Source: an uncultured Clostridia bacterium
GTDB taxonomy: Bacteria; Bacillota; Clostridia; TANB77; CAG-508
Length of the DNA: 53,886 bases
Direction: 5' to 3'
Assembly (NCBI GenBank): GCA_948664205.1
Contig: CAPNDH010000002.1
Location: forward strand, 1 to 53,886
Shown here: positions 884 to 48,206 of the stretch, piece by piece
How positions within the stretch are numbered: the stretch's first letter is position 1
How the letters are laid out: each line of letters begins with the position of its first letter
The notes under the pieces: model-generated
Told to the model about the DNA's origin: nothing
Database searches by the model: none
The model's input: only the letters and a program-made list of their open reading frames with translations
Position numbers and translations under genes: made by a program

Positions 884-897
884 ACTTATCCCTCCTC

Positions 898-948
898 CAA
901 AATTCGCAGAATTTTGTACTATTCATTATTCACTATTCACTATTCATT
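898..948 (-). repeat. Leader cassette copy L1 upstream of yqfD: SD-proximal hairpin (898-916) plus TGAATAG/TGAATAA heptads (917-948).
   Basis: Same architecture as copies at 48118, 49584, 50873 and 51874. Stem is AAAATTC/GAATTTT. Confidence 0.7.
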
Positions 949-980
949 TAAGCCTTTTCTCCAAAGATTGGACGAGCTAT

Positions 981-6469: not shown

Positions 6470-6487
6470 TCTATTTCTCCATTAATA

Positions 6488-6538
6488 TGATGCAAAAGGG
6501 ACAGATGACGCTATTTACAAACGTCCCCAATGAGTCAT
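6488..6538 (-). repeat. T-element copy T1, abutting the stop codon of the methyltransferase gene.
   Basis: CAAAAGGGAC...GTCCCCAA core with ATGAC/GTCAT second pairing. Same layout as 28524, 32997, 49779 and 51982. Confidence 0.6.
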
Positions 6539-7404
6539 TAATTATTTTCCCAACGTGCAAATATTCCGCATGGTAATATTAGTTTTGAATTTGTCATTGG
6601 AAGTCCTACTTCTCCGCTTGTTACTTTTCCATTATATTTTTTTGTTACATTTAGGTTTAATATGTTTTCTAATACTGTACTTGATATTCCTGTTGTGTAT
6701 GAATTTATTAAGAAAAATAATGGGTTATCTGATAAGACTTTAGAACAAAGCTCTACTAAGTCACATATGTTTTCTTCAAACTTCCATACTTCGCCATTTG
6801 TTCCTCTTCCATATGATGGTGGATCCATTATTATTGCATCATATTTATTTTCTCTTCTTATTTCTCTATTTACAAATTTTACTACATCATCTACTATGTA
6901 TCTTACTGGTCTATCTTGCAGACCTGAAGAAGCTATATTTTCTTTTGCCCAAGCTACCATTCCTTTTGAGCTATCTACATGGCATACGCTTGCTCCTGCA
7001 TAGCTACAAGCTACTGTTGCTCCACCTGTATATGCAAATAAATTTAATACTTTTATTTCTCTATTTGATTTTTTTATTTTTTCTATCATCCAATCCCAGT
7101 TTACGGCTTGTTCTGGAAATAGACCTGTGTGCTTGAATCCCATTGGTTTTATATTGAATGTTAAGTTTTTATAATTTACTTGCCAGTTGTTAGGTACTTT
7201 CTTTTTATATTCCCAACTTCCTCCACCTGTACTACTTCTATTATATTTCGCATTTATCTCTCTCCATTTATTAGGAAAACTTTTACTTTTCCATATTATT
7301 TGTGGGTCTGGCCTTACTAATATAATATCTTTCCATCTTTCTAGCTTTTCTCCATTTGCCATATCTATTATTTCATAATCTTTCCAATTATTTGCTATTA
7401 TCAT
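6538..7404 (-). CDS. Class I SAM-dependent methyltransferase (RlmI/RlmK-like)
   Basis: VLNLFAYTGG SAM-binding motif and IIMDPPSYGRG motif. Confidence 0.7.
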   Translation of the reverse strand: MIIANNWKDYEIIDMANGEKLERWKDIILVRPDPQIIWKSKSFPNKWREINAKYNRSSTGGGSWEYKKKVPNNWQVNYKNLTFNIKPMGFKHTGLFPEQAVNWDWMIEKIKKSNREIKVLNLFAYTGGATVACSYAGASVCHVDSSKGMVAWAKENIASSGLQDRPVRYIVDDVVKFVNREIRRENKYDAIIMDPPSYGRGTNGEVWKFEENICDLVELCSKVLSDNPLFFLINSYTTGISSTVLENILNLNVTKKYNGKVTSGEVGLPMTNSKLILPCGIFARWENN

Positions 7405-7591
7405 ATTCTTCTCCTTCTATTTTTCTGTTTATTATTATAACAAAATATTGCTTATAATTCAACATATATATTCAAAGACAAACAACAGACTAGTTATATT
7501 CCTAATCTGTTGTTTTGTTTCTAGTTTAAAAAGATAATATCTCTGAACTATTATTATAATTATATATATTTTAAATTTCATCGCTTTCATT

Positions 7592-15698: not shown

Positions 15699-17890
15699 TT
15701 ACCAATCTACATATACATTGCTTTCCTCTTTTACCTTTATGCTTGCTTTTGGAGTTTGTGTTTTTACAGTTGTATTTTCTTTATCCATTCCCTCTTGTTC
15801 ATTTGATATTACTAGTTTTAGATTATTTTCTTTTAGTAATTTTTCTGCTTCTTTTAGTGTTTTTCCTTCTATATTGGGTACTTCTACTTCTTTTTTCATT
15901 TCTTCTTCTAGTTCATTATCTTTTACTAGTTCTAAATATGGAAGTACCTCTCCAAATATTTGTGAGCCTATTGGTGCTGCTACGCCCCCTCCTTGGTGAC
16001 CTCCTTCTCCTGTTGGGTTATATAGTGTTATTAATACTGCTACTGTTGGGTTTGATATTGGTGCTACTCCTATAAAAGATGTTACATATTTTCCTGTGTT
16101 TACTCCGTCTTCTGATGTTCCTGTTTTTCCTCCTATTCTATATCCTTTTACTTGTGAGTTTTTTCCTGTTCCTTCTGCTACAACGCTTTCCATCATACTA
16201 AGTACATTTTTTGCAGTTTCTTCTGAAATTACTCTATCTTTTTTTATAACTTCTACTTCTTTTCTTTCTCCTGTTTGACTATCAATAACTCCCTTTACTA
16301 CTCTTGGCTGTATATATGTTCCTCCATTTGCAATAGTTGATACCATTGTAATCATTTGTATTGGTGTTACTTCAAATCTTTGACCAAATGCTATTGTTCC
16401 GAAGCTCTACTGGTCCTACTTTTTCTTCTTTTAGGAATATTGAACCTGCCTCACCTGGTAGGTCTACTCCTGTTCTTCTTAAAAAACCAAATTTTTCTAA
16501 ATATTCATAATATTTGTGTACCCCAAGCTTTTGTCCTAGCCCTATAAATACTGGGTTACATGAGTTCATTAGTGCTTGCCTTAAGCTTTCTGAGCCATGT
16601 GGCCTATAATGCCTCCAACATTTCATACGTGTTCCTGCAACTTCAATTGAACCAGTACAACAAAATTCTCCTTCTTTATCTACTTCTGCTATCTTTTCCT
16701 CTAACGATGCTGATGCTGTTACTAATTTGAATGTAGAACCTGGCTCATATGTATCTGAAATCGCCTTATTTCTCCACATTGCTTGTAAATTTTTAGTTTT
16801 ATCACTTTGATTTAAGCTATCCCAATTTGCCTTTAATTCATCAGTATTTGGTGAATATGGCTCATTTAAGTTATAGTTTGGGAAACCTGCTAAAGCTAAA
16901 ATATCTCCATTTTGTGGGTTCATAATCATTATATTTCCACCGTCTGTACACTTATTATCTATGCAAGCTTCTTTCAAATATTTTTCTGCTATTCCTTGAA
17001 TTGTACTATCTATTGTAAGTATTAGATCATTTCCATCAATTGCTGGTACATAATTTTCTGTAGAGTTTTCTATTTCTCCACCTTTTGCATCTGTTACTTT
17101 TGTTATTTTTCCGTTTACTTCCTTTAAGTTCTTTATCATACCAAGCTTCTATACCATCTAGACCTTGATTATCACTTCCACAAAAACCAATAATTTGTGA
17201 TGCTAAATTATTGTATGGGTAATATCTTTTTGTGTCTTCATCTATATTAATTCCACTAGTTATATTATTATCTTTCATCCATATTCTAAGTTCATCTGCT
17301 TTTTCTTTATCTACTTTTTTTACTATTGTTTCTATTGAACTTCTTTTAGTTACTCTTTTTAAAACAGTCTCATAGTCTAAGTCAAATATTTTAGTAAGTG
17401 CTTCTGCTACTTTTTCTTTATTCTCTTTTGCTATATTTACTGGGTTAACTGTTATTGTTTCAACTGTTGAACTAACTGCTAAAATATTTTTTCCTGTACT
17501 ATCATAAATAGTTCCTCTTTTAGGGTTTATATTTCTGTCTAAAGTTTGCCCAATATATGCCATAGATTGTAATTCTTCCCCTTTAATAAATTGTATATGT
17601 GCTAACCTTCCTGCTAAAAGTGTGAATAACAACATAGCTACTATTAGCTCCCATATAACTTTTTTCTTTCTTGTTATATTTCCTGTAATTTCTGAATTTT
17701 TGGTTTGCTTTTTATTTATTTTTCCAAAGTCAACTTGCTTTTTCTTTTTCAATTTATCTATTTCTTTATTATTATTTTGTTTATCTATTTTTTTCTTTAA
17801 TTTATTTTTTACAATTTGCCTTTGAGTTTTTTTTATATTTTCTTTTTTGTTTTTTAAATTGTTAACTATATTTTTTCTGGTATTTTTCAT
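15699..17890 (-). pseudogene. spoVD: SpoVD/FtsI-type class B penicillin-binding protein (one PASTA domain) in dcw position, split into three ORFs by two +1 frame breaks (nt 17113 and 16401).
   Basis: The three track ORFs are collinear with the intact paralogue at 22848-25148 (STFK, SCN, KTGT motifs). 2192 nt minus 2 equals 730 codons. Confidence 0.8.
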
Positions 17891-17971: not shown

Positions 17972-18080
17972 GTAGGGGCGACTATTAGTCGTCCGCTCTT
18001 CGAAGAAATTACCCTAACTTATATATTTGTTTAAGTACTTTCGCTGGAGCAAGGACGAGCGATTGCAAAGCCCCTACAAT
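17972..18080. repeat. Inverted pair of P-modules (GTAGGGGCGAC-TATTA-GTCGTCCGCTCTTCGAAG ... CCCCTACAAT) in the ftsL-PBP spacer.
   Basis: Matches the P consensus seen at 45927, 48172, 49728, 51023 and 51932. Confidence 0.6.
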
Positions 18081-29349: not shown

Positions 29350-29492
29350 GGGTAAATTCTTTTAAGTATTCCTTACGATGTAGCCCCATGGTTTTACTAA
29401 TGAATAATGAATAGTGAATAGTGAATAATGAATAATTTTTTCTTGTTAAGTATGTGACATCCATTTCAACATTCACTATTTATTATTAATTA
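29350..29492. repeat. Degenerate half S-element (29350-29386) plus inverted TGAATAG-type heptad arrays (29396-29437 / 29463-29492).
   Basis: GGGTAAATTCT...GTATTCCTTACGATGTAGCCCC resembles the S right arm. Heptad periodicity read directly. Confidence 0.5.
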
Positions 29493-32684: not shown

Positions 32685-32813
32685 ATTTTCACCTCATATC
32701 ATACTTATATGATAGCACAAGCGATTTTTTTTGTAAAGAATTTTATGCTATTTTTATTAAGCAATATTTGGTATTTTGTTACAATTCAAATTTGTATAAT
32801 ATCTTATTTTACC

Positions 32814-32959
32814 GTAGGGGCTAAATCGGTTAGGAATACCCCTTTGAGAATACCGAATTTCGCCCTTAGACAATTTAAATATTGATATAAATTAAAATAT
32901 ATGTTTAGGGCGTAATTAGGTAAATTCTAACTAGTATTCCTTATCGATTAAGCCCCTAC
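32814..32959. repeat. S element copy S1 (146 nt, near-palindromic, GTAGGGGC...GCCCCTAC termini).
   Basis: ~85% identical to the reverse complement of 43038-43184. Half copies at 49647-49698, 50936-50986 and 29350-29386. Confidence 0.8.
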
Positions 32960-32996
32960 AATAATTTCAAATTACGAACTTTAAATTATCGCAAAA

Positions 32997-33048
32997 TGAC
33001 GCAAAAGAGACAGATGACGCATCGGAAAACGTCCCCAACGCGTCATCT
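32997..33048 (-). repeat. T-element copy T3, 6 nt after the stop of the 1,590-aa gene.
   Basis: GAGAC/GTCCC (G-U only in gene-sense RNA) and GATGACGC/GCGTCATC pairings. Confidence 0.6.
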
Positions 33049-33054
33049 TATTTT

Positions 33055-36000
33055 TTATTTTAGAACTTTCTTTTTAATAAAGATTATTCCTGTAATTAAT
33101 ATTGCACTTGCTAACAATGTTATTCCTGCTATTATGTAAGGCATTCCTGCGTTACCAAATGGTGGTAATATTTTAACAATTTCTGCTCTGTCTGCATCTA
33201 CTTCTGTTATATTTCCATTTGGGTTTTGGTTACCTACTACTGAGTATGCCATTCTTCTACCTACATTATTGCTTGTTTTTACAATTTCTACAACATTTCT
33301 GTATGTTAAGTCGTCTGTTTCGTTTTCTGAAGTGATTAATTGTGTTAATACTAAGTCATCACTAACTGTTGCTTTTGTTTTGTCATATTTTTCAGGTACT
33401 AATTCAGTTTTTGCAATATTTGAATTTTGGTTTGTTGTAATTACTGTGTTGTACTTTTTAACTTCATCAGTTAATTTGTTGTTTACTAATGTTTTTGTTT
33501 CTTCTCCATTTGCTAATAAAGTTTGTTCATCTATTACGCTCCAACTGTTATTATCTACTGCGTAGAATTGTAAGTTGTTTGCTACATAGTCAATTACTTG
33601 ATCAGCCTTCGTTTTTACAACTGTTCCTGGATCAGATACTATTCCCGTGTAGTAGAACATATTGTCTTTATAATCTACTTCTCCCTTATTAGTTACAGTT
33701 ACTTTGTACGAAATTTTAATTGTTGCACCATGCATTAATTCTTCATCCATAGACATTTGAATTAAACCATATTGTGCATCATATGCGTTTCTATCTCTTA
33801 CTGCTACCATTGGGTCATCTTTTAACATTAAATCTTCATTATAATATTTGAAGTCATGTTCTTTATGGTGTCTCCATAATACATTTGCCATTTTATCTGT
33901 TGCATCAAATAATGTTGATCCGTCTGCTAATGTTAATTTAATGTTTGTTACTTCTTTATTAACTGAAAGCTGAGCTTTTGGTCTTTCTTCTAGTCCTAAG
34001 TTTAAGTTTTGAATTTTATATGTTGTATTATTATATTTTTCTTCACCATAGTTTCCTTGCTCTCCAGTTCCTGTTCTGTCATATTCAACTTCTATGTCAA
34101 TTATACCTGTTTCAGCTGTCATTTGAGTTTTTGCCATTAACTCTGTTAGCATATTTTGTAGTTCTTCTCTTGAATAGTAAACTTTATTTCCTTTACTGTC
34201 TACAAATACAGCTGCCTTTTCATGTGATGCTAACACTCCTGCAATTCTATTTATAACTTCTTTATCTGAATATCCTATTACATCTTCTCTACTGTTTAAT
34301 GTAGCATTTTGTCTATAATATTGTGTATTTACATTGTTATCTGTCATAATGTCTTTTGCATCTGATATTTTAGAATTAGCATCTGATGCTGTAATGTTGT
34401 ATATATATGAGCATGAAGTATGGTTATTTGCATATGTAGAATAATCTGTTACTCCTGCTTGATATGTTGTTGTTTTGTAATCTTGACCATTATATGATTT
34501 TTCATTTTGTCCTTGCCATTCAGAAATTCCTGTAGATTCAGATACTTTTGGAAGTGCAGTTTTCACTGTATCTCCATAAATATATCTAACTATATAATTT
34601 CCTGTAGGATATGATTTAAATACATATTTTCCTATAGTATTATCTACTACATCTGGTATTAATGGTGTTCCACTTTCACCTATTAAATTAATAATTGGTT
34701 TATATGTTCCTTGACCAGATGAGAATCTTTCCCATACATATTCTGTTCCATTATTCATAAGTTCTACTAATTCTACAGTTAGTCCATTTATTGAAACTTC
34801 TTTTGAATTATCGTATATACCATCACCAACTGCTGTTACTTGTTCATTATTAATTACATTTCTTTCATCTTCCCAAATAATACCATCCATTGTTCTACAT
34901 ACTATTTCACCATTTTCTCTGTATATTATTAATCTGATATTTGGTGCTTTATCTGTATCGTCTTCAAAGTTATTGTAGTTAATATTTCCATCTTTTGGTA
35001 CATCATTTGGATTTATATTTCCTGGTACTGAGTCTCTATCGAATAAACCTGCAACTTTGTTTCCTGAAGTTTTTCCTACATTTGGTATATATGTTCCATC
35101 TCTATAATATGTTTTGAATCCATTTATTTCTGCAATGTTTTCTTTTCCTACTCCAATTGCTGTAGCTTTTTCTACTGTTTCATCAAGTCTTATCCAATCT
35201 TCACCGTTTACATTATCTTTCTTAACTTTAAATGTTAAGTAAATATATGCTGTTTGACCTGTAGTTAATTTTTGTCCTTGTAATCCTTGTACATATATTG
35301 CATCATAACCTGCTATATCAGTTGAATTAGAATTTCCATACATACTTGTGTATGATGCATTTACAGGATACTGACCTTTATTTTTTCCGTTTTTTATTTC
35401 AATATATGAACGGTCATTTACATATTCATAATCTTCATCAAAGTAGTCTACAACTTCTGTTATTTCACCTTGTATACTTTGTGATTGATTACGAACAGTT
35501 AGCTTGTATGTTACATATACATTTAATTCATCTGCTTTAGTTTTACCATATGCAGTTGCATTATTGCCATAGTTTGATGCTTTATATTGATAATCTGAAC
35601 CAAATATTTCTCTTGAATATTTAGTATTGTAATAGCTATCAGAAAGTCTTACATTTATATCCCAAGTTCCATGGTCTGTTTCATCTGCAAAACTTCTTGT
35701 GTCATAATCATATGTATGAACTTTTCCATTTATTTCTATTGTTGCTTTTTGTACGTCTTTTCTTAATGCCATATCAAATTGTTCTCTTCTATTTAATCCG
35801 AAATCAATTTGTAAGTGTGATGGATATAATGCTGGATAAAATACTCCTGCTACTGTTCTTGATTCTGTGCTTTCATTAAAGTTATCCCAAATTGGGTAAT
35901 TTACTCTTGTACCATTATATCCTGTGTATGAAGATATTCTACAGTCTTCTATAAATTGTAATTTACTTTTTGTAGTATTATTATTTCCAAATTTATTTAA

Positions 36001-37827
36001 TGTATTTGTATATGCTGTTTGATAGCTCTTAGTTTCTACTGCTTGCTCAGTTAAATAATCATATATTTCTTTAATACCATATGGTGTTTCTGAGCTTTCT
36101 TTTTCTATTATCCAAGCTGTGTTGCTAGAACCATTTGAATAATATAAACTTCTTCTTACTGTGTAATTTCCTGGTGCTGAACCAATTTGTGCGAAGTGAT
36201 TATTAAAGTTTACTCTTTCATTTGGGTCTTCTGTTCCATTATTTTTCAATCCTTCAAGTCTTTGTTCATTTGTTAATGTGTTGTCATATTTTGTTGCTTG
36301 ATATATTTGTCCATCATAAACAAATTCTATGTAGTATTTCCTTTGAGCATTTAAATTATTAAATTCATAGTATCCATCTTTATCTGTTACTGTTCTTGCT
36401 ACTTCTGTTCCACTTTGCTCATGTAATATAACTTCTACACCTGGTTTTACATTTTCGCTTTCATCTTTAATACCATTTGGTTCACTACGTTTACTTGAAT
36501 CTTCATCTTCCCATACACGACCTGCAAGTTTTATTTGTAAATTCTTTTCAGGTGGTGTAGTTGGCTTATTTGGTGGTATCCTTGTTGGTTCTTTATGTGC
36601 TGGTATTGGTATATCTAACGAAGAACTATTTAATTTTCTTTCTCCTTCTGCTGACATTAATCTTTGGCTTGGATCTGATGTTGCTATTATTTTCGCAGAC
36701 GCTACTTCACAATCCCAACAATTTACTGTTGTACTATGTGATTTTGTACAACCTGATGGACAATTTTTGCTATGTGAACCTTTTTTAGTATGTGTATGTG
36801 TAGGATGATCAAAAGTGTAGCTTGTTTCATACCTAGTTCCTTTATAATATGTAAGAGTTGCTGTTGCTTCCATCCATTGGAATTCAAAATGTACTTCGTT
36901 TATTTGTTCTTCCTTTTCAGATACATATTTTACATAGTACTCTTCTCCTGATTTTGGATAAGCCTGTGGGTTTCTATCAACCATTTCTACGCTATCTGGT
37001 GTAAAATATTTTGGAGTTATTTCAGTTCCACCTATTATAAATGATTTTATTTCTATTCGTCCACTTTCTGCTTCTATATATGCATTAGATATTCCTCCAA
37101 ATGCTATATTATCATATTGCCCATTACCATATTGTAAACCTGGAAATGGTCCAGCTATATATTCTTTTGGGTTTTGTGCAACACTTATTTTTACATTATC
37201 TGCGCTACCAGTTGGGTTAGCCATTTGGTTCATTTGGCCTGGGTTAAATTCTCCATATTTTGCGGCTTCTGCAAGAATTCCATCAGACCCTGCACTTGAT
37301 GGTGGTGTTGCTGAGTTGTTACTCATTGAGCTTCCCCACATTGCATATTGTTTTTCCTCTGACCAATCATTTACTCCTGGCGCTGGATATGTTACTATAT
37401 ATGCTTCTTCTGGAGTTGCCTCCCTTGTACCATCTATACTATAATATATTTTTGATTTTAATGGTACTCTGTTTTCTACATATACATGAGTCATACATGA
37501 TGCTTTATCATTTTTATGTGCTTCTATATCTGCTTCTAAGTCTTCATAGTAGTCACCTTCTAAGCTTACATGCCCACCTTTTTGTGCACAATATATTTGT
37601 GATATTCCACTTACTTCAAAGTGAATTGGTTCAAAACCTATTACTGTGCTTTGATCTGCTACAAATACTGAGCCTGGTGCTAAGCCTAAAACTTCTTCAC
37701 CTTCTGCTTTTTCAATTGATACATTCTTCATTAAGAAGTTAGGTATAGATTTGATTGCTAAAAATGCTACTATTGTAACTAATGTTATAAATACTAAATT
37801 AATTATTCTTTTTATATTTTTATTCAT
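33055..37827 (-). CDS. Giant surface protein (1,590 aa) with SdrD-B/Cna-B-type repeats and a C-terminal hydrophobic anchor
   Basis: N-terminal signal anchor. Cys cluster CPSGCTKSHSTTVNCWDC, a Pro-rich linker, a GRVWEDED...DGYYEFNNL prealbumin-like repeat, and a C-terminal LPPFGNAG + TM + KKK tail. Confidence 0.7.
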   Translation of the reverse strand: MNKNIKRIINLVFITLVTIVAFLAIKSIPNFLMKNVSIEKAEGEEVLGLAPGSVFVADQSTVIGFEPIHFEVSGISQIYCAQKGGHVSLEGDYYEDLEADIEAHKNDKASCMTHVYVENRVPLKSKIYYSIDGTREATPEEAYIVTYPAPGVNDWSEEKQYAMWGSSMSNNSATPPSSAGSDGILAEAAKYGEFNPGQMNQMANPTGSADNVKISVAQNPKEYIAGPFPGLQYGNGQYDNIAFGGISNAYIEAESGRIEIKSFIIGGTEITPKYFTPDSVEMVDRNPQAYPKSGEEYYVKYVSEKEEQINEVHFEFQWMEATATLTYYKGTRYETSYTFDHPTHTHTKKGSHSKNCPSGCTKSHSTTVNCWDCEVASAKIIATSDPSQRLMSAEGERKLNSSSLDIPIPAHKEPTRIPPNKPTTPPEKNLQIKLAGRVWEDEDSSKRSEPNGIKDESENVKPGVEVILHEQSGTEVARTVTDKDGYYEFNNLNAQRKYYIEFVYDGQIYQATKYDNTLTNEQRLEGLKNNGTEDPNERVNFNNHFAQIGSAPGNYTVRRSLYYSNGSSNTAWIIEKESSETPYGIKEIYDYLTEQAVETKSYQTAYTNTLNKFGNNNTTKSKLQFIEDCRISSYTGYNGTRVNYPIWDNFNESTESRTVAGVFYPALYPSHLQIDFGLNRREQFDMALRKDVQKATIEINGKVHTYDYDTRSFADETDHGTWDINVRLSDSYYNTKYSREIFGSDYQYKASNYGNNATAYGKTKADELNVYVTYKLTVRNQSQSIQGEITEVVDYFDEDYEYVNDRSYIEIKNGKNKGQYPVNASYTSMYGNSNSTDIAGYDAIYVQGLQGQKLTTGQTAYIYLTFKVKKDNVNGEDWIRLDETVEKATAIGVGKENIAEINGFKTYYRDGTYIPNVGKTSGNKVAGLFDRDSVPGNINPNDVPKDGNINYNNFEDDTDKAPNIRLIIYRENGEIVCRTMDGIIWEDERNVINNEQVTAVGDGIYDNSKEVSINGLTVELVELMNNGTEYVWERFSSGQGTYKPIINLIGESGTPLIPDVVDNTIGKYVFKSYPTGNYIVRYIYGDTVKTALPKVSESTGISEWQGQNEKSYNGQDYKTTTYQAGVTDYSTYANNHTSCSYIYNITASDANSKISDAKDIMTDNNVNTQYYRQNATLNSREDVIGYSDKEVINRIAGVLASHEKAAVFVDSKGNKVYYSREELQNMLTELMAKTQMTAETGIIDIEVEYDRTGTGEQGNYGEEKYNNTTYKIQNLNLGLEERPKAQLSVNKEVTNIKLTLADGSTLFDATDKMANVLWRHHKEHDFKYYNEDLMLKDDPMVAVRDRNAYDAQYGLIQMSMDEELMHGATIKISYKVTVTNKGEVDYKDNMFYYTGIVSDPGTVVKTKADQVIDYVANNLQFYAVDNNSWSVIDEQTLLANGEETKTLVNNKLTDEVKKYNTVITTNQNSNIAKTELVPEKYDKTKATVSDDLVLTQLITSENETDDLTYRNVVEIVKTSNNVGRRMAYSVVGNQNPNGNITEVDADRAEIVKILPPFGNAGMPYIIAGITLLASAILITGIIFIKKKVLK

Positions 37828-37843
37828 ATCTAATACCTCCTTC

Positions 37844-40800
37844 CTACATTCTTCTTAGTACAAATTTTCTTATATAGTAAATACTTACTCCTAATACTGT
37901 ACATATAATTACTGAAATTATTGCTGTATAAATTACCACATCACCTGTTTTTACACTTATTACAACATCTGCTGATGACATGTCGTCTTCACCATTTACT
38001 TTGTTTGCTGGTGTTGAGTCTATATCTGCTATGCCTTCTTCGTTGTATACTTCGTAAAGTTCTGCATTGTTATTTACTATTCCAACATTTTTATCTGTCA
38101 TTTTTCTTGTTAATGTTAATGTTAATTCTTTAGACTCACCACTTTCTAGTTTTATATTTGCTAAACTAGAATTATATAAGTCTCCATTTGTTGATTCATA
38201 CCAATCTCTATTTAATTCTGAATTGAATTTCATATCTTTTGGTATATAATCTACTACCTTTTTAACGTAGTTTGCTTTTGCCCCTTCATTTGTAACAACT
38301 ATTTTGTAATCTATTATAACTGTTGCATTTGAAAGTTCTTTTGCTGGAATTTCAACTTTTGCAAGTTTTGCATTTTCATAATCATAAGTTTTTACTGTAT
38401 TTCCATATGTTAGTGTTATTTTTGAAATATATTTATCTAATCTTAAATCTGATTTGTCTGATTCAAGTAGACCTATATCTATATTTCTTGCATTTTCTTT
38501 ATTAATTATTATTAAGTCTGATATTGCTACTGTTTGTTCTTTTCCGTTTATATTCATATTTGTATTTATAAAATCAGAGTTTACACTATTTTGTACTCCA
38601 TTTGCTCTATAACTTGTTAAATCATATTTTGCAGAATTATATACAAATACTACTATATATTCTCCTGATGGTAAGTTGATAAATCTATATTCTCCATTAG
38701 AACTTGTTTGTGTTACTTTATCTGCTTCCGAGTCAACATCTTTTACTATTTCATTTGTATTTTTATTTAGTAATCTAACTTCTATTCCAGGTAATGTTTG
38801 TTCTTCTTCATCTCTTTGTCCATTTTTATTAGTATCTAACCATGCTGTTCCTGAAATTATATATCTTCCTTCTTTTTGTGGTTTATCACTTGGTCCATCT
38901 ATTAAGTCATGTGCTTCTTTGTTATATTCAATACTTGCTTTTACACTATTTGATGTTATTTCTTCAAACATATCTCCTGAAATTACTGCATAATTCGTTA
39001 TTTCTTTTTCTGTAACTCCATCTGGTAATAGTTCTGCCTCCATTGTTACTGTAACAGTTATTTTTTCATTTGCTTGTAATGAATTTATTTTTGTTTCTAA
39101 AGTGTTTGCATTTGTTACATTTCTTGTTATATCTAATTCATATCCTGTTTTAACTATTTTAGCATTTACTACTTTCATTCCTTCTGGAATTATATTTTTA
39201 AAGTTAATGTTTTTTACATATACTTTGCTATTGTTTTCAATATCATATGTAAATGTTATTCTTTCTTTTTCTTTTACATATCCACTTGAAGGTGCATTTT
39301 GTTTGAACCCTAAATTTACTTTGCTTACTTCATTTTTTGTTATATTTGAGTAATGCATACCTGTATTATTTGCCTCACCTGCCATTGAAAATTCTATAAT
39401 TCCTTGTGCATCATTTACTTTTGCTACAATTATACATTCAATATAATTTCCTTTTGGAAGATTATTTATTGTGAATATAATGTCATTTCCTTCCATACGT
39501 TTTGAATATGTTATTTCATTGTTTGGTATAGTTCTTGCTTCTATTTTAGCATCTTTTATTTCTAAACCATTTGGCATCTTTGCTCTTAATACTAAATTTT
39601 CTAAATCTTGTGAACCATTTGCTTTTACTACTGCTGTATATTCAAGTTCATTACCTTTTACTAAAGTATATGAACTAAATTTATTTGCTCTTGTCTCAAT
39701 AGTCATATATCCTTCTTTGATATTTAGTTTATATTCATTAGATACTACTTCTTTTTGTAGTTTATCTGCCATAACTCTTACTTTATTATTAAGAGTTACT
39801 TCTGATTCAATTATTTCTTCTTCTAAAATATATAAATTGTTTCTATATTCTTCTATGTTTTCTATTCTTAATTCATATTCAATAGATTTAGTTTGACCAG
39901 CTGGTATTTTACCTACATTAATTGTTTTTTCTTGTGCATCACTTTCTTCATATCCAAAGAATAGTTCTTCTTCTTTGTATTCAGTATGTTTTGTAGTATA
40001 TTCATATACCAATTGCCCTTCAGGGTTTGCTATTTTACTTACATCTTCAGTAAAGAATACTTCTCCATTTTCCATATAAGTATATATTTTTCCATTTGGT
40101 GCAGTTATATTTAATTTTACATTTTCTGCATCAACTGTTCCTGTATTTTTTATGTTTGCTGTAAATTTTACATATTGTCCTTCTCTTACAATAGAGTTTT
40201 CTTCTGAAGTAGATTTTAATTCTACTTGTAATTCTGGTGCATCTCCAGTATATAATTTTACTTTGTTTGCTTTTGCTCTATCATTTATTATTTGTTCTTC
40301 TTTAACATTATCAAAATATACTGTATATAATGAATTTGTTTCTTCTGAATATCCTAAGTTTGCTGGAACTTGCACATCGTAATTAAATTTAACACTATCA
40401 CCTATGTTCATCTCATAATTATTTAATACTATTAGGTATGATTTAACCTTTGTATAATCTTGAACTTCAGCTTGCCATCCATTTTCTCTATTTTCTAAAT
40501 CTTGTGTTGCTGTTCCATTTTCTGAGTAATAAATGCTTACATTTTCAAATCCATTTGTATTTATAGGGCTTGTCATTGGTGCATCAAATGTGTTTTCTAA
40601 GCTTTCGTTTGAGTCTATATCGTTTGCACCTTGCATTAATGTTCTTCCTAAAATACGTACATTATTTATTTTATTGCTGTAATTATTTATTACTTGTATT
40701 TCTGCTTTTGCATTTTGTGCTACTGTTTGTACTTCAAGTACTGCTTCTTCATTTTCAGTTAATGCCATTAGGCTTGCACCTTTTGCATAGTTTTCTATTT

Positions 40801-42829
40801 TATTTACTGTTACTATTCCTGTTGGTGCTATAAAGTTTATTTCTTTATTTACTTCTATTTGTTCATTTTCATTTGAAACTATCATTTTTACATTTTCAGC
40901 TTTGTTTGGTGTTAAATTATTTACTGTTATATCTGCTAAAATAACTAAGTTTGCTCCGCCTGAAATTGCATCAATACTATACATTGTTTGAGTTCCTGCT
41001 AAGTTTACAACAATTTGTTTTCTTCCATTGTTATTTACTACATTCCAATTTGCTATTTTTAATTCAGTTTCAAATGGTAATTGAATATTTTTTATATTAA
41101 TGTTTTCTATATATTCTGGTAAATCAATTACAATGCTAGGGTTTTTATATAATTTGTTAAATATAGAATTTGTATTTAGTATTACTTTAAGTTCTACATC
41201 TTCATTTACTACTACTGTTGATAAACCTAAATTGCTTATTTCTAACCCTGCTGTAGTTTGTGGTTCTACTAAAGCTGTTTGTATATTTTGTGCTTTTTCT
41301 ACTATTGTTTCATTTCCATTTATCGCTGTTCCTACTATTTCTTGTTTAAGCATTTGAATACTTTGCATTTGAGCCTTAGTGTAATTACTATTACCTAATA
41401 TTTCTTTTTCAAAGTTAAATACTAATTCTCCATCGTTTTCTGGTTTTGATGTTTCTATAATTACACTTGATGCATTTAATTCTATTGTTTTTTCTTCAGT
41501 ATCTTTATTTATTATTACTTCACTATTTTCTGTAATAACTTTAATAGTTCCTTCTTCACCTAAAACTTTTAGCCATGCTTCTTTTTCTATTTTTAAGTTT
41601 TTGTATATTGTATTTGCTGTATATTCGTTACTATCTATTACATATTTATCTGTTACGGCTGAAAGTTTTACTCCATCTACTAATTCTGGCATTGCTATAT
41701 TTGATGTTACTTTCTCTTCATATGTTGTATTTATTTTTTCTTTTCTATCATAATTTGCGTATATGTAACCTTTGCTTATGTTTTGAACTGTTTCTACTTT
41801 GTAGTCTACTATGTCTCCAACTTTTTCTGTTAAAATAGCTTCATTTGCATAAGTTGCTGGTAATACTTTTTCATCATAACTATACACTGTAATATCTGAT
41901 AAAGCATTTATTGTTATAGCTGTTTCCTCTACAACTGCTGTTTCTGAATATTTATATGTTATTATAAATTCATTTAGCATATTATTATTAAAAACAATTT
42001 CTTTGTTTTCATTTTCTATATTTTGTGCTATTATTCTTACAATTTTATTTTCTTTATCATAGCTTGAAGTATAGTTTTCTGTATTTTGTTTGTTATATAC
42101 TGTTACTTCTTCTGGAGCTATTCCATTTATTTCTGGTACTGAAATTTCTATTTTATTTTGTTTTATTGGTAACCTATTATCTTTTAAATTAGACTTAACA
42201 TCTACTTGCATTATTAAACCTTTTTGCCCATTTATATCATATGGTACATATTTTGTAATTTGAGCTTCTAATATACTTTCGGTTTCTAGTGTCCATTTTA
42301 AGTTTAGCTCAATTTCTTTTCTAATTTTACATTCTTTTCCTTTTTCATCTATGTATGTACCTGTTAAAATTACTGAGCTTATTTTATTTAATTGTTCTTC
42401 TGAAATTACATTTTTAGTTTCAAATGTGAATGGTATGTCTAACTCTACTGTTTCCCCATTATCAATTTGATTTAAAACTATACTGTTATTTTCAATTTTT
42501 GCTACTTTTTCTGATTCTAGCTCATTTGAAATTTTGAAATTTGAATCGACAAAATCGACCCTAGCATTTTTCAAATATCCTGCATTCTTTACAGTTATTT
42601 CTGCTACGACCTTATTTTCTTCTCCTACGTTTTTTATTGCTTCGTATTTTTCTTCTTCAAAGTAAGTATCAAACTCTACATTTTGGTGCTGTGTTTTGCT
42701 ATTTTGATTTTTTAATTTTGAATCTGTTGCAAAAACTGCTCCAAGGCTTGAACCTATTGTACTTACGTGTGCTAGCATCATAATAAATACGATAGCACTT
42801 GCTATAATTTTGTTACCTTTTTTGTACAT
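37844..42829 (-). CDS. Giant surface protein (1,661 aa) with DUF11/Cna-B-type repeats and a C-terminal sorting-signal-like anchor
   Basis: Signal peptide, many ~100-aa beta repeats, a GTAWLDTNKNGQRDEEE...NGEYRFINL repeat, and a C-terminal SVKTGD + TM + RKFVLRR. Confidence 0.7.
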   Translation of the reverse strand: MYKKGNKIIASAIVFIMMLAHVSTIGSSLGAVFATDSKLKNQNSKTQHQNVEFDTYFEEEKYEAIKNVGEENKVVAEITVKNAGYLKNARVDFVDSNFKISNELESEKVAKIENNSIVLNQIDNGETVELDIPFTFETKNVISEEQLNKISSVILTGTYIDEKGKECKIRKEIELNLKWTLETESILEAQITKYVPYDINGQKGLIMQVDVKSNLKDNRLPIKQNKIEISVPEINGIAPEEVTVYNKQNTENYTSSYDKENKIVRIIAQNIENENKEIVFNNNMLNEFIITYKYSETAVVEETAITINALSDITVYSYDEKVLPATYANEAILTEKVGDIVDYKVETVQNISKGYIYANYDRKEKINTTYEEKVTSNIAMPELVDGVKLSAVTDKYVIDSNEYTANTIYKNLKIEKEAWLKVLGEEGTIKVITENSEVIINKDTEEKTIELNASSVIIETSKPENDGELVFNFEKEILGNSNYTKAQMQSIQMLKQEIVGTAINGNETIVEKAQNIQTALVEPQTTAGLEISNLGLSTVVVNEDVELKVILNTNSIFNKLYKNPSIVIDLPEYIENINIKNIQLPFETELKIANWNVVNNNGRKQIVVNLAGTQTMYSIDAISGGANLVILADITVNNLTPNKAENVKMIVSNENEQIEVNKEINFIAPTGIVTVNKIENYAKGASLMALTENEEAVLEVQTVAQNAKAEIQVINNYSNKINNVRILGRTLMQGANDIDSNESLENTFDAPMTSPINTNGFENVSIYYSENGTATQDLENRENGWQAEVQDYTKVKSYLIVLNNYEMNIGDSVKFNYDVQVPANLGYSEETNSLYTVYFDNVKEEQIINDRAKANKVKLYTGDAPELQVELKSTSEENSIVREGQYVKFTANIKNTGTVDAENVKLNITAPNGKIYTYMENGEVFFTEDVSKIANPEGQLVYEYTTKHTEYKEEELFFGYEESDAQEKTINVGKIPAGQTKSIEYELRIENIEEYRNNLYILEEEIIESEVTLNNKVRVMADKLQKEVVSNEYKLNIKEGYMTIETRANKFSSYTLVKGNELEYTAVVKANGSQDLENLVLRAKMPNGLEIKDAKIEARTIPNNEITYSKRMEGNDIIFTINNLPKGNYIECIIVAKVNDAQGIIEFSMAGEANNTGMHYSNITKNEVSKVNLGFKQNAPSSGYVKEKERITFTYDIENNSKVYVKNINFKNIIPEGMKVVNAKIVKTGYELDITRNVTNANTLETKINSLQANEKITVTVTMEAELLPDGVTEKEITNYAVISGDMFEEITSNSVKASIEYNKEAHDLIDGPSDKPQKEGRYIISGTAWLDTNKNGQRDEEEQTLPGIEVRLLNKNTNEIVKDVDSEADKVTQTSSNGEYRFINLPSGEYIVVFVYNSAKYDLTSYRANGVQNSVNSDFINTNMNINGKEQTVAISDLIIINKENARNIDIGLLESDKSDLRLDKYISKITLTYGNTVKTYDYENAKLAKVEIPAKELSNATVIIDYKIVVTNEGAKANYVKKVVDYIPKDMKFNSELNRDWYESTNGDLYNSSLANIKLESGESKELTLTLTRKMTDKNVGIVNNNAELYEVYNEEGIADIDSTPANKVNGEDDMSSADVVISVKTGDVVIYTAIISVIICTVLGVSIYYIRKFVLRRM

Positions 42830-43037
42830 AGAAAAATCCTCCTAATTTTTTATATTTTATTTTTATTTTTTACAATATTGCCTATATTTTATTATACACC
42901 TTTTTCTGGCATTTTTCAACGTTTTTAGGATATTTTTTAAACTTTTTATGTATATCATGTTTTATTCTACTTTTATCGACTTTTTTCGTGATTTTATTTA
43001 TGGTTTTTATATATTTTAAAAATATTCTATTACTACT

Positions 43038-43184
43038 GTAGGGGCTTAATCGGTTAGGAATACCCGCTAGAATTTACCCAATTACGCCCTAATCGCATAT
43101 TTAAATTTGTATCAATATTTAAATTTCATAAAGGGCGAAATTCGGCATTTCCAAAGAGGTATTCCTTACCGATTTAGCCCCTAC
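43038..43184. repeat. S element copy S2 (147 nt), inverted relative to S1.
   Basis: See S1. The arms are distinguishable, so orientation is defined. Confidence 0.8.
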
Positions 43185-43513
43185 AGTATAAATATATTGT
43201 TTGTTTACTGTATTTTTAGCGCATAATACCCCTTAATTATATATATTATATATATTTTTACATATTTAAACGTATTTTTCAATGTTCCAAAACCTTTGTA
43301 TATAAAAATATCGTGTAATGCACTACGGAAGTACGTTTTCAGCTATTTATATTAAATTTTTATTACATTTCTTATTATTTTATTATTTTTTTGTAACACT
43401 ATTGTTTTTTTTGAATATTATTATAATGATATGATATAAAAAATAGATTTAATTTGGTCGATTAAAACGTGCGACCCCTATAAAAATTTATTTTAAGAGA
43501 GGATGTGCTGTTT

Positions 43514-44401: not shown

Positions 44402-44725
44402 TTATAATTTATTTAGATAATTTTGACCTTTATAAAATATATGTATGATTAATACTTCTTGTGTATCATCTTTTATTTCATAAATAATATTATAGTTATT
44501 TATTTGAATTTCTCTTAAAATTCTATTTTTATTATACATAGGTTCAATCTTTTTGAACCTATGTGGCATAAAATTTAGAGTATTTATTTTTTTAATTACC
44601 TCGTTATAAAATTTTTTAGCTATTATTGGTTCTTTTAATTTATTCTTTAAATAATATATAATTTCTCCAAGTTCTTCTTTAAAAGTTAAGGTGGGAAGAA
44701 CCTTGTATTCATTAATGTAAATCAT
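44402..44725 (-). CDS. RelE/ParE-family type II toxin
   Basis: 107 aa with a ParE/RelE-like pattern (...NYNIIYEI..DTQEVLIIHIFY...). 14-nt overlap with the upstream antitoxin. Confidence 0.75.
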   Translation of the reverse strand: MIYINEYKVLPTLTFKEELGEIIYYLKNKLKEPIIAKKFYNEVIKKINTLNFMPHRFKKIEPMYNKNRILREIQINNYNIIYEIKDDTQEVLIIHIFYKGQNYLNKL

Positions 44726-45062
44726 ATTCTTCCTCCATTTCTGTACAAAATTCTTTCATTGTTTGGTATTTCCCTTCGTCTACGTCTTTAAGTCCTTGCT
44801 CTATTTTTTTCCACATAGCTTTTTCAAATTCTTCTTGTGTTTTATAATGTTTATTAAAATGTTCTTCTACTAGTCTATCAATTCTTTCTTCTTCTGTTTC
44901 TTTTTTTACTTTAATAATCTCTTCGTATAATTCGTCACTTAAAACAACTAAATCGTTAGTTCCATTTTTCGTAATATACATAGGCTCTTTTGTTTCATGA
45001 CAGATTTTTGAAATTTCATTATAATTATTTCTTAAATCTGCACAAGGTCTAATTAATGCCAT
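44712..45062 (-). CDS. Phd/YefM-family antitoxin
   Basis: MALIRPCADLRNNYNEISKICHETKEPMYITKNGTNDLVVLS is a Phd/YefM N-domain. Confidence 0.75.
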   Translation of the reverse strand: MALIRPCADLRNNYNEISKICHETKEPMYITKNGTNDLVVLSDELYEEIIKVKKETEEERIDRLVEEHFNKHYKTQEEFEKAMWKKIEQGLKDVDEGKYQTMKEFCTEMEEEYDLH

Positions 45063-45875: not shown

Positions 45876-46000
45876 GGAAGTTAGAAGTTGGAGGTTGGAG
45901 GTTGGAGGTTGGATTTGGGGTAGTTTCTTCGAAGTTCGGACGGCTAATAGCCGCCCCTACAATTTTGTTTTCTGATTTCCGACATCCGACTTCTGACCTC
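45876..46000. repeat. GGAGGTT/GAAGTTA heptad array (45876-45920), P-module (45927-45964) and an inverted TCCGACA/TCTGACC heptad array (45971-46000).
   Basis: 7-nt periodicity on both sides. The arms are imperfectly complementary. Abuts the mrdA stop codon. Confidence 0.6.
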
Positions 46001-48102: not shown

Positions 48103-48117
48103 TCTTTTCCCTCCTTC

Positions 48118-48206
48118 CAAAACTCGAAGAGTTTTGTACTATTCACTATTCATTATTCATTTAAGCCTTTTCTTCGAAGCACGGACGACTAATAGTCGCC
48201 CCTACA
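48118..48206 (-). repeat. Leader cassette L2 (hairpin 48118-48136, heptads 48137-48161) plus P-module (48172-48206) filling the mreD-mrdA spacer.
   Basis: See findings. The P-module starts at the mreD stop codon. Confidence 0.7.

What the first reader, a model, noticed from the sequence alone, without database searches (positions are those of the whole stretch)
32814..43184. Inverted pair of 146/147-nt S elements brackets the 10-kb cassette encoding the two giant surface proteins
S1 (32814-32959) and S2 (43038-43184) are about 85% identical as reverse complements. Each is itself a near-palindrome with GTAGGGGC(T/A)AATCGG...CCGAT(T)TAGCCCCTAC termini, two GC-rich internal boxes (GAATTTCGCCC / GGGCGTAATT) and an AT-rich centre. 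Its two arms are distinguishable, so orientation is defined. Between the pair lie only a T element, the 1,590-aa and 1,661-aa genes and their upstream region. Half copies (one arm) sit in the radC-mreB, mreB-mreC and cwlD-upstream spacers. No transposase is present. The possibilities are a MITE-like element family whose copies mark the borders of an inserted accessory cassette, recombination substrates for inversion or excision of the cassette, or structured RNA/DNA boundary elements.
Basis: partly seen in the sequence, partly recalled or inferred. Interest (0 to 1): 0.65.

Follow-up and report, generated by a model that had tools for sequence, protein, structure and literature searches.

The report
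REP doublets beside an ancestral operon
The two 146/147-nt "S elements" are real, but they are ordinary copies of a dispersed palindromic repeat family (REP doublets) that flanks a small tyrosine transposase gene elsewhere in the same bacterium. They entered two spacers beside an old, conserved pair of surface-protein genes and do not mark a mobile or invertible cassette.

Summary
S1 (32814-32959) and S2 (43038-43184) are 87% identical in inverted orientation. Each is a near-palindrome with GTAGGGGC...GCCCCTAC ends.

The cassette interpretation does not hold.
- S belongs to a family with 20 full and 66 single-arm copies, counted in the window plus 66 loci from about 10 mouse-gut Clostridiaceae MAGs.
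- Each 38-53-nt arm is a GTAG-tagged hairpin, that is, a REP. A full S is two arms head-to-head, like a REPIN.
- In the window's own species, and in two other lineages, a 151-159-aa HUH/Y1 transposase gene sits exactly between an S left arm and an S right arm. Its best fold match is E. coli TnpA-REP (4ER8), and the residues reported to read GTAG are conserved.
- The two giant genes are syntenic and equally oriented in three related species. None has S at the S2 site, where the window carries a clean 217-nt insertion. The sister species has only a plain terminator at the S1 site.
- About ten conspecific assemblies show no inversion or excision.
- S1 and S2 are no closer to each other than to copies elsewhere.

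Verdict: a REP/RAYT system in a low-GC Clostridiaceae, which is a new member of a known kind. The bracketing is best explained as coincidence.

The parts
32814..32959 (+). S1: full S element. It is a head-to-head doublet of two GTAG-tagged REP units (left arm 32814-32865, right arm 32908-32959) around an AT-rich spacer.
   Evidence: As ssDNA it folds into one long hairpin, -32 kcal/mol, z = -8.0.
43038..43184 (-). S2: full S element in the opposite orientation to S1.
   Evidence: ssDNA fold -38 kcal/mol, z = -8.7.
43006..43222 (.). 217-nt block (32 nt + S2 + 38 nt) present in the window's species and cleanly absent from the aligned spacer of three related species. This is the actual inserted unit at this site.
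   Evidence: Four-species alignment of the spacer between the giant-1 gene and the divergent small ORF.
33012..33048 (-). Hairpin of the T repeat (family copy about 32993-33048). It is the predicted intrinsic terminator of the two-gene operon and lies between the stop codon of the 1,590-aa gene and S1.
   Evidence: 17-pair stem plus a T-rich tail. RNA fold -32.9 kcal/mol, z = -5.2. Other family copies (D5, D14).
33055..37827 (-). 1,590-aa surface protein gene (signal peptide, SdrD_B/CarboxypepD_reg Ig-like repeats, C-terminal membrane anchor).
   Evidence: Syntenic homologues in relatives.
37844..42829 (-). 1,661-aa surface protein gene (DUF11/CLIPPER, SdrD_B; signal peptide and C-terminal anchor).
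   Evidence: Syntenic homologues in relatives.
42891..42919 (-). Promoter-like site of the giant operon (TTGAAA-17-TATAAT), conserved in four species. S2 lies about 120 nt upstream of it.
32709..32737 (-). Promoter-like site of the downstream 306-aa gene (TTTACA-17-TATCAT), conserved in the sister species. S1 lies between the T terminator and this promoter.
49647..49698 (-). Single S unit (one REP) in the mreB-mreC spacer. The sister species has a mutationally decayed copy at the same place.
50935..50986 (-). Single S unit in the radC-mreB spacer. One conspecific strain (L076) carries a 55-nt internal deletion.
29338..29391 (+). Degenerate S unit next to a heptamer array.
17972..18077 (.). Doublet of short canonical 'G-type' REPs (GTAG + GGGCGAC-TATTA-GTCGTCC + CTTCGAAG box). 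Further single G-type REPs lie at 45915-45961, 48169-48206, 51024-51060 and 51928-51966, with a remnant at 22699-22706.
   Evidence: (I10, I19, I25, D7)

Best explanation
S is a doublet of GTAG-tagged repetitive extragenic palindromes (REPs), comparable to a REPIN. It belongs to the repeat population of a REP-associated tyrosine transposase (RAYT, HUH/Y1 family). The RAYT gene lies elsewhere in the same genome, between an SBP_bac_5-family solute-binding-protein (SBP) gene and recA, and is itself framed by one S left arm and one S right arm.

Shown: the family exists in many copies, nearly all intergenic. Each arm is a hairpin tagged by 5'-GTAG. The RAYT is flanked by the arms in three lineages. 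The giant-gene pair is ancestral and syntenic. Three relatives lack S at the S2 site, and the sister species lacks it at the S1 site. Copies differ in presence or absence between strains and between species.

Inferred: the RAYT binds the arm hairpin on single-stranded DNA, cleaves at or next to GTAG, and copies or moves the units, as shown for E. coli TnpA-REP and for IS608. S1 and S2 then arrived separately in two permissive spots. S1 sits between the operon's terminator and the next promoter. S2 sits about 120 nt upstream of the operon's promoter. They flank the operon by coincidence. Any present role (extra hairpin, transcript-end stabiliser) would be secondary.
For: Family:
- The 26-nt terminus hits 66 loci in about 10 uncultured Clostridiaceae MAGs.
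- An nhmmer census gives 20 full and 66 single-arm copies. Five lie inside predicted ORFs and 11 could not be classified at locus ends. The other 70 are intergenic.

REP nature:
- 95 distinct arms align as GTAG plus a 13-pair hairpin with 93% of cells paired.
- Pair 10-48 is never unpaired: U-A 71, A-U 21, C-G 1, U-G 2.
- The 38-nt short form has a 5-nt loop.

Transposase:
- L002 385-840 is a 151-aa ORF lying exactly between an S left arm and an S right arm, with GTAG outward.
- It matches Pfam Y1_Tnp at 40.8 bits. It scores 75.7 bits against NCBIfam REP_Tyr_transpos and 33.6 against IS200.
- P0002 is the homologue assigned to the window's species. It gives a sequence hit to PDB 4ER8 with HUH, W94, Q95, E100, H101, R104, Y115 and N119 all conserved.
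- Its AlphaFold model (pLDDT 90) matches 4ER8 best, with TM 0.69 and rmsd 2.5 Å.
- P0002 contigs come from the same samples, at similar coverage, as the window's species. Thirteen of the 14 best runs are shared.
- Both of its flanks are S arms.
- A RAYT only 60% identical, at a different locus, is also framed by S-type arms.

Synteny:
- The order minC, two small ORFs, giant 1, giant 2, 306-aa gene, GGDEF gene is conserved in the sister species and in two further species.
- None of them has S at the S2 site.
- The sister species has a plain terminator at the S1 site.

No special pairing:
- S1 is 88% identical to a strain-polymorphic copy and 86% to a copy in another species, against 87% to S2.
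- S2 is 88% identical to copies in two other species.

Dynamics:
- A full S is present in three conspecific contigs at 22678-22754, where the window has only a remnant.
- One strain carries a deletion inside a single unit.
- An orthologous spacer compared across species holds no S (L016, L028), a single unit (L006) or a doublet (L007).

Orientation:
- Unpaired GTAG heads in tandem spacers point with the genes 60 times and against them 12 times, p = 8e-9.
Against: - No transposition or cleavage was observed, so activity is inferred by homology.
- The arms are longer (38-53 nt, with a bulge, an internal mismatch and often a 19-nt loop) than the canonical REPs of Proteobacteria.
- Copies differ by 12-17%. 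From my own knowledge, this is more than in typical REPIN populations, so the population may be old or inactive.
- The L002 protein, 89% identical to P0002, scores just below NCBIfam's curated cut-off (75.7 against 80). P0002 itself was not scanned.
- The indel at the S2 site is 217 nt rather than 147 nt, so the ends of the mobilised unit are not defined.
- The link between the RAYT contig and the window's genome rests on co-occurrence and coverage, not on a physical join.
- Two full copies in consecutive spacers has a chance of about 6% (33 of 561 spacer pairs; and arithmetic). This is unremarkable but not nothing.
Confidence: 0.85

Rival explanations
1. S1 and S2 are the functional borders of a mobile or invertible 10-kb cassette. 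They would act like a composite transposon or as recombination substrates for inversion or excision of the surface-protein genes.
For: Two full copies in inverted orientation lie in the consecutive spacers that flank the operon. In one contig (L067) the giant-1 gene is replaced by the sister species' allele, so the region does vary.
Against: The gene pair is syntenic and equally oriented in three other species, none of which has S at the S2 site. The sister species also lacks S at the S1 site. About ten conspecific assemblies are collinear with the window. The longest exact match between S1 and inverted S2 is 17 nt, which by general knowledge is short for RecA-dependent exchange. The operon promoter lies inside the interval. 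G+C content of the cassette matches its surroundings. The L067 replacement runs from about 37.9 kb to the end of that locus (window 42678), so only the 37.9-kb boundary, inside the operon, was seen. It could also be a chimeric assembly.
Confidence: 0.04
2. S is a classical MITE derived from a DDE-type insertion sequence with 26-bp terminal inverted repeats. It would be mobilised in trans by that IS, and the RAYT association would be incidental.
For: Perfect 26-nt terminal inverted repeats, a size of about 146 nt and an AT-rich centre resemble MITEs such as Correia elements.
Against: None of 17 full copies has a target-site duplication. The flanks tend instead to extend the palindrome. Single arms outnumber doublets three to one, and each arm folds on its own with covariation. 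Y1 transposase genes sit exactly between the arms in three lineages. No DDE transposase with these ends was seen in about 0.5 Mb of flanking loci.
Confidence: 0.05
3. S copies are kept mainly because the host uses them as structured boundary elements (terminators, transcript-end stabilisers, insulators). S1 and S2 would then have been selected at the two ends of the highly expressed giant operon.
For: In L006 and L007 an S copie occupies a convergent spacer that holds a plain bidirectional hairpin in L016 and L028. Its flanks extend the stem with a compensatory change and end in a T-run. Single units are co-oriented with transcription 60:12. S1 and T replace the sister species' simple terminator.
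Against: At S1 the terminator-like hairpin is the T repeat, not S. S2 lies upstream of the promoter, where no terminator is needed for this operon. The spacer classes that hold S mirror the background spacer classes. Relatives manage without S at these sites. The orientation bias is equally expected from insertion into the lagging-strand template. No usable RNA data were found.
Confidence: 0.12

Closest known systems
REP / REPIN-RAYT systems (E. coli TnpA-REP with REP/BIME; Pseudomonas REPINs; the GTAG-tagged REP families of Di Nocera et al. 2013, PMC3733652)
   Same: - A 5'-GTAG tag abutting an imperfect hairpin.
- Many extragenic copies occurring as singletons and as inverted doublets with GTAG outward and a conserved spacer.
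- A small HUH/Y1 transposase gene framed by two inverted units (a 'REPtron'), always found in one genomic context per lineage.
- Conservation of the residues reported to read GTAG (Quentin et al. 2018, PMC6006769).
- Mosaic stacking with other repeat modules, like BIMEs.
   Different: - The host is a 27% G+C uncultured Clostridiaceae from rodent gut. The GTAG-REP survey of Di Nocera et al. mentions no Clostridia or Firmicutes. Bertels et al. note only that Group 1 RAYTs also occur in Clostridia.
- The units are long (38-53 nt), AT-rich in the middle, and carry a bulge, a mismatch and a partly duplicated loop.
- Copies are 12-17% diverged.
- Short canonical REPs (G-type) with the same GTAGGGGC head coexist with them.
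IS200/IS605 transposons (IS608, ISDra2) and their miniature derivatives
   Same: The Y1 HUH fold, ends recognised as hairpins, absence of target-site duplications, and a strand-biased orientation.
   Different: IS200/IS605 ends are two different subterminal hairpins rather than long inverted repeats, and the elements are multicopy with their transposase. Here the transposase was seen in a single genomic context per lineage, and NCBIfam scores it as RAYT (75.7 bits) well above IS200 (33.6 bits).
Correia elements of Neisseria and other TIR-type bacterial MITEs
   Same: About 150-nt size, 26-nt inverted termini, full and shortened forms, and location in spacers next to promoters and terminators.
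   Different: Correia elements make a TA target duplication and have no hairpin-forming half units or associated Y1 transposase (statement from my own knowledge). S has no duplication and is framed around a RAYT gene.

Membership tests
REP / REPIN-RAYT system | Conserved GTAG (or GTGG) tetranucleotide 0-2 nt 5' of a hairpin | tested here: met
   Among the 95 distinct arms (which were selected with a GTAG-headed pattern), 93 start with GTAG, one with GTGG and one with GTAA. The stem starts at the next base.
REP / REPIN-RAYT system | The unit is an imperfect palindrome whose pairing is maintained | tested here: met
   13 pairs with 93.1% of cells paired, against 12-49% when the 3' partners are slid by 1-3 columns. 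Pair 10-48 shows U-A, A-U and C-G and is never unpaired. The stem has a bulge and a mismatch, and the long form has a 19-nt loop, so it is not a canonical short REP.
REP / REPIN-RAYT system | Many copies, overwhelmingly extragenic | tested here: met
   86 copies in the window plus 66 loci. Five lie inside predicted ORFs and 11 at locus ends could not be classified. In the window all heads but one are in spacers, and that one lies at the tRNA.
REP / REPIN-RAYT system | Inverted doublets (REPIN / head-to-head dimers) with a conserved spacer | tested here: met
   20 full copies of 121-156 nt align along their whole length with defined polarity.
REP / REPIN-RAYT system | A RAYT gene flanked by the same REPs in inverted orientation | tested here: met
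   L002, L082, L090 and L107.
REP / REPIN-RAYT system | The protein is a RAYT: HUH motif, catalytic Tyr and GTAG-contacting residues | tested here: met
   The alignment to 4ER8 conserves HUH, W94, Q95, E100, H101, R104, Y115 and N119. 4ER8 is the best fold match. The L002 homologue scores 75.7 bits against NCBIfam's RAYT model, just under the cut-off of 80.
REP / REPIN-RAYT system | RAYT present as a single copy at a fixed, vertically inherited locus | tested here: inconclusive
   All 16 places shown (of 21 contigs read) for P0001 and P0002 are compatible with the same SBP-RAYT-recA context, and no other context was seen. No closed genome was available to count copies.
REP / REPIN-RAYT system | The RAYT binds and cleaves the REP, and units are mobilised | not testable with these tools
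   Only indirect evidence exists: presence/absence differences between strains and species.
TIR-type MITE of a DDE insertion sequence | Target-site duplication flanking the terminal inverted repeats | tested here: not met
   None of 17 full copies has direct repeats at its borders.
Composite transposon / invertible cassette bounded by repeats | The repeats travel with the cassette, or rearranged junctions exist | tested here: not met
   Relatives carry the genes without S at the sites examined. All conspecific contigs are collinear with the window. Only assemblies were examined, so rare variants are not excluded.

The most novel reading that the evidence does not exclude
This may be a living REP-RAYT system in a Gram-positive, low-G+C gut anaerobe. 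Sequence integrity of the repeats may depend on the RAYT. The window's species keeps an intact RAYT and crisp S and G repeats in about 30% of its spacers. Its sister species shows no RAYT orthologue in the protein database and almost no repeats across about 30 kb of syntenic sequence. It does carry a mutationally decayed S unit at the shared mreB-mreC site. If this holds, the species pair would be a natural experiment on whether RAYTs maintain REP populations.
Probability: 0.3. Interest if true: 0.55.

Novelty: new member of a known kind. Interest (0 to 1): 0.35.

Why it matters
For the finding as written, the result is deflationary. The giant surface-protein genes are core, syntenic genes, not an S-bounded accessory island, and the S pair should not be annotated as cassette borders or as an invertible switch.

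What remains of interest is modest but real. A GTAG-tagged REP population with its own RAYT occurs in an uncultured rodent-gut Clostridiaceae, a lineage outside the Proteobacteria where such systems have mostly been described. Its units are unusually long, and short canonical REPs coexist with them. Repeat load also differs sharply between sister species.

The result explains why assemblies of this organism break at these spacers, since unitigs end at the S arms. It also provides ready substrates (arm oligonucleotides plus a 151-aa enzyme) for a biochemical test of REP recognition in a new lineage.

Tried and rejected
- Rfam, gathering thresholds, whole window: only a tRNA. S and T are not known RNA families.
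- Exact-protein look-up with the long MreB ORF found nothing because the start codon was wrong.
- Target-site duplication search: none.
- I first took the 528-aa ORF next to the S doublets in L016, L028 and L059 for the orthologue of the SBP gene beside the RAYT, which would have implied a "RAYT-deleted REPtron". tblastn showed it is a different gene, so I dropped the claim. The true orthologous SBP-recA spacer in one MAG (L022) holds a G-type REP doublet instead of a RAYT.
- Logan contigs of four DNA runs: the listed "joints" have only 20-27 nt on the shorter side and come from other repeat copies or chance matches. They are not rearrangements.
- Metatranscriptome contigs gave only tiny or related-strain fragments, with nothing over S1 or S2.
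- Literature searches for RAYT or REPIN in Firmicutes or Clostridia found only passing mentions.
- A pseudoknot reading of the T repeat was not pursued. Folding gives a simple hairpin for the copy beside S1 and nested stems for the others.
Full report
OBSERVATION. S1 is 32814-32959 and S2 is 43038-43184. S1 read on the + strand aligns best with S2 read on the - strand: 129 of 148 columns, or 87%. The direct orientation gives 76%. Each element is 74-77% identical to its own reverse complement, so they are near-palindromes with a definable polarity. The 26-nt terminus GTAGGGGCTWAATCGGTWAGGAATAC occurs six times in the window against 0.00 expected. Four of these are the ends of S1 and S2. The other two are single arms in the mreB-mreC and radC-mreB spacers. 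A degenerate arm lies at 29338-29391. The 8-mer GTAGGGGC occurs 12 times against 0.22 expected, because other repeat modules share this head. Between S1 and S2 lie only the T repeat, the two giant genes and their upstream region. The window encodes no transposase.

CONTEXT. The window is about 27% G+C throughout, and the cassette does not stand out. It carries the dcw and mre/min cell-division and shape genes of a Clostridia-class bacterium. The 1,590-aa and 1,661-aa proteins have a signal peptide, Ig-like SdrD_B/DUF11 repeats and a C-terminal membrane anchor. Public runs that hold the sequence are mouse and rat gut metagenomes.

WHAT S IS.
- Distribution. A scan of one genome per species for the S terminus returned 66 loci, all from about ten MAGs labelled uncultured Clostridiaceae, Clostridia or Clostridium. 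None is the window's own genome. The closest syntenic match is about 85% identical in DNA.
- Census. A profile built from S1 and S2 finds 20 full copies (121-156 nt) and 66 single-arm copies in these loci plus the window. The full copies align end to end with the same polarity.
- Arm structure. The left and right arms are inverted versions of one 38-53-nt unit. In 93 of the 95 distinct units it begins with GTAG, followed at once by a stem (GGGC, mismatch, 4 bp, bulge, 5 bp), and it ends in GCCC. Across the 95 units, 93% of cells are paired, against 12-49% for slid controls. One pair covaries (U-A 71, A-U 21, C-G 1, U-G 2) and is never unpaired. This covariation preserves pairing within an arm, not between the two arms.
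- Match to the definition. A GTAG tag on an imperfect hairpin is the published definition of a GTAG-type REP (PMC3733652, PMC6006769). A head-to-head doublet with GTAG outward is the REPIN / "HH dimer" arrangement.
- G-type REPs. The window also holds short canonical REPs with the same head (GTAG + GGGCGAC-TATTA-GTCGTCC), which I call G-type, in six further spacers.

THE COGNATE TRANSPOSASE.
- Discovery. I screened ORFs in the loci for ones framed by outward-facing heads. This gave L002 385-840, a 151-aa protein with MPNHIHMI and WQRNYYEHIIRDE motifs lying exactly between an S left arm and an S right arm.
- Family. It matches Pfam Y1_Tnp. It scores 75.7 bits against NCBIfam "REP-associated tyrosine transposase" (cut-off 80) and 33.6 bits against IS200.
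- Assignment to the window's species. Its 89%-identical homologue P0002 sits on contigs from the same samples, at similar coverage, as contigs of the window's species. Thirteen of the 14 best runs for that contig also hold the window. I therefore assign P0002 to the window's species.
- Genomic context. In every place shown for P0001 and P0002 the context is compatible with SBP_bac_5, RAYT, recA, and both flanks are S arms.
- Conserved residues and fold. P0002 hits PDB 4ER8 (E. coli TnpA-REP bound to a REP hairpin). The HUH motif is conserved, as are W94, Q95, E100, H101 and R104, which are reported to contact GTAG, the catalytic Y115, and N119 (residue roles from PMC6006769). An AlphaFold model (pLDDT 90.4) has 4ER8 as its best fold match (TM 0.69, rmsd 2.5 Å), ahead of the IS608, ISDra2 and IS200 transposases.
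- A third lineage. A RAYT only 60% identical, at a different locus (after rplQ) in another organism, is again framed by S-type arms.
- Other features. Full copies show no target-site duplications. Their flanks tend to extend the palindrome.

IS THE PAIR TIED TO THE CASSETTE? No.
- Conspecific assemblies. About ten conspecific contigs (99.8-99.98% identical) show the same arrangement. S1 and S2 are unchanged apart from one SNP. Logan contigs of four further runs are collinear and simply break at the S arms.
- Synteny. Three related species all have minC, two small ORFs, giant 1, giant 2, the 306-aa gene and the GGDEF regulator in the same order and orientation. Their MinC proteins are 89%, 77% and 74% identical to the window's, and the GGDEF regulator is 88% and 77% identical in the two species where it was looked up.
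- The S2 site. None of the three has S there. The four-way alignment shows a clean 217-nt insertion in the window (43006-43222, with S2 at its centre) between two blocks conserved in all four species.
- The S1 site. The sister species has a 102-nt spacer with a simple terminator hairpin, followed by the conserved promoter of the next gene. The window has the T hairpin (a predicted terminator), S1 and extra AT-rich sequence instead. A third species has unrelated palindromic repeats there.
- No special pair. S1 and S2 are not each other's closest relatives. S1 is 88% identical to a strain-polymorphic copy. S2 is 88% identical to copies in two other species. They are 87% identical to each other.
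- Recombination potential. Their longest exact inverted match is 17 nt.
- Promoter position. The operon's conserved promoter (42891-42919) lies inside the S1-S2 interval, so inversion could not act as an on/off switch.
- Chance. GTAG-headed repeats occupy 10 of the window's 34 spacers of 50 nt or more, and S-type copies occupy 4. The chance that two full copies fall in consecutive spacers is about 6% by simple arithmetic.

DYNAMICS.
- Within the species. Three conspecific contigs carry a full S at 22678-22754, where the window has only a GTAGGGGC remnant. Another strain has a 55-nt deletion inside the radC-mreB unit.
- Between species. One orthologous convergent spacer holds no S (L016, L028), a single unit (L006) or a doublet (L007).
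- Sister species. It has one GTAGGGG head in each of its syntenic loci, which are 12.7-21 kb long (L098, L104, L106). The window has 10 heads in 24 kb. Its mreB-mreC spacer holds a decayed S unit at the site of the window's intact one. No RAYT more than 60% identical, other than P0001 and P0002, is in the protein database. This fits loss of the RAYT and decay of its repeats in the sister species, but it is an inference from incomplete data.
- Orientation. Unpaired GTAG heads in tandem spacers are co-oriented with the genes 60 to 12, p = 8e-9. This is expected both from insertion into the lagging-strand template, as known for IS608-type elements, and from an RNA-level role. The data do not separate the two.

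MECHANISM. Shown: the family, the hairpin, the RAYT framed by the arms, the ancestral synteny of the genes, and the lineage-specific presence of S2. S1 is absent from the sister species and from a third relative. Inferred by homology with TnpA-REP and IS608: the RAYT recognises the arm hairpin on single-stranded DNA, cleaves at or beside GTAG, and thereby copies or moves units and doublets. Also inferred: S1 and S2 landed independently in permissive positions, S1 after the operon's terminator and S2 about 120 nt upstream of its promoter. Any effect on transcription is secondary and untested.

COMPARISON AND NOVELTY. The system meets every sequence-level criterion of a REP/REPIN-RAYT system. 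Activity and copy number could not be tested. It differs from described families in several ways. The host is a low-G+C uncultured Clostridiaceae. The units are long, with a bulge and a partly duplicated loop. Copies are relatively divergent. It coexists with short canonical REPs and other stacked modules. The GTAG-REP survey does not mention Clostridia or Firmicutes. Bertels et al. note only that Group 1 RAYTs also occur in Clostridia. I rate it a new member of a known kind. The finding as written, S elements as cassette borders, is not supported.

Noticed in passing
window 893-975, 48113-48188, 49579-49654, 50866-50941, 51867-51948; also 25155-25365 and 29373-29436: A repeated 5'-leader cassette lies directly upstream of the start codons of five genes: the gene at 230-883, pbp2, mreC, mreB and radC. 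It consists of a (GAATAGT/GAATAAT)n heptamer array, a short hairpin (CAAAACTC-N-GAGTTTTG) and the ribosome-binding site. The sister species has only one decayed copy, in the mreB-mreC spacer.
   Followed up: partly
window 6484-6520, 28522-28558, 32993-33048, 49773-49809, 51976-52012: The T repeat family has a conserved inner stem GGGAC/GTCCC. Its outer stem differs between copies with compensation (GATGACGC/GCGTCATC versus GTCCA/TGGAC). Copies sit just after stop codons. The one beside S1 scores as an intrinsic terminator.
   Followed up: partly
L067 1-5041 (corresponds to window about 37.9-42.7 kb): One conspecific contig differs from the window by 0.2% or less across most of its length (up to about 2% in two repeat-bearing spacer bins). 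Its giant-1 gene, however, is 12-30% divergent and 98.9% identical to the sister species' allele. This is either allelic replacement of a surface-protein gene by recombination or a chimeric metagenome assembly. The same sample also yields a window-type contig (L078).
   Followed up: partly
window 44402-45062: The Phd/YefM-ParE toxin-antitoxin pair between minC and the small ORFs is present in the window's species and absent from the syntenic loci of three relatives. This pair, not the giant genes, is the accessory insertion in this neighbourhood.
   Followed up: partly
L022 about 7300-7500: In one MAG with many S copies, the SBP-recA spacer holds a doublet of short G-type REPs (GTAGGGGCGATTAATAATC...) instead of the RAYT that other species have there. 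The downstream flank is the same.
   Followed up: partly
window 15699-17890: The dcw-cluster penicillin-binding protein is split into three consecutive ORFs (PBP_dimer; Transpeptidase N-part; Transpeptidase C-part plus PASTA). It is a probable pseudogene or a run of frameshift errors. An intact paralogue lies at 22848-25148 in inverted orientation, which explains inverted repeats I1, I2, I5 and I7.
   Followed up: partly
window 53161-53246: A perfect 39+39-nt palindrome with an 8-nt loop lies after mecA. One conspecific contig (L075) lacks about 60 nt of it.
   Followed up: no
L044 5333-5413 and 6747-6829; L003 2725-2777 and L041 569-622: Some single S units lie inside long predicted ORFs. One ORF of more than 1,179 aa holds two of them, and a pair of homologous ORFs in two MAGs holds one each. 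These are possible intragenic REPs of the kind reported for other GTAG families.
   Followed up: no
window 43300-43420 and the aligned L098, L100 and L102 spacers: An inverted motif GTGTTACA...(about 25 nt)...TGTAACA is conserved in all four species between the divergent small ORF and the giant operon. It may be an operator site.
   Followed up: no
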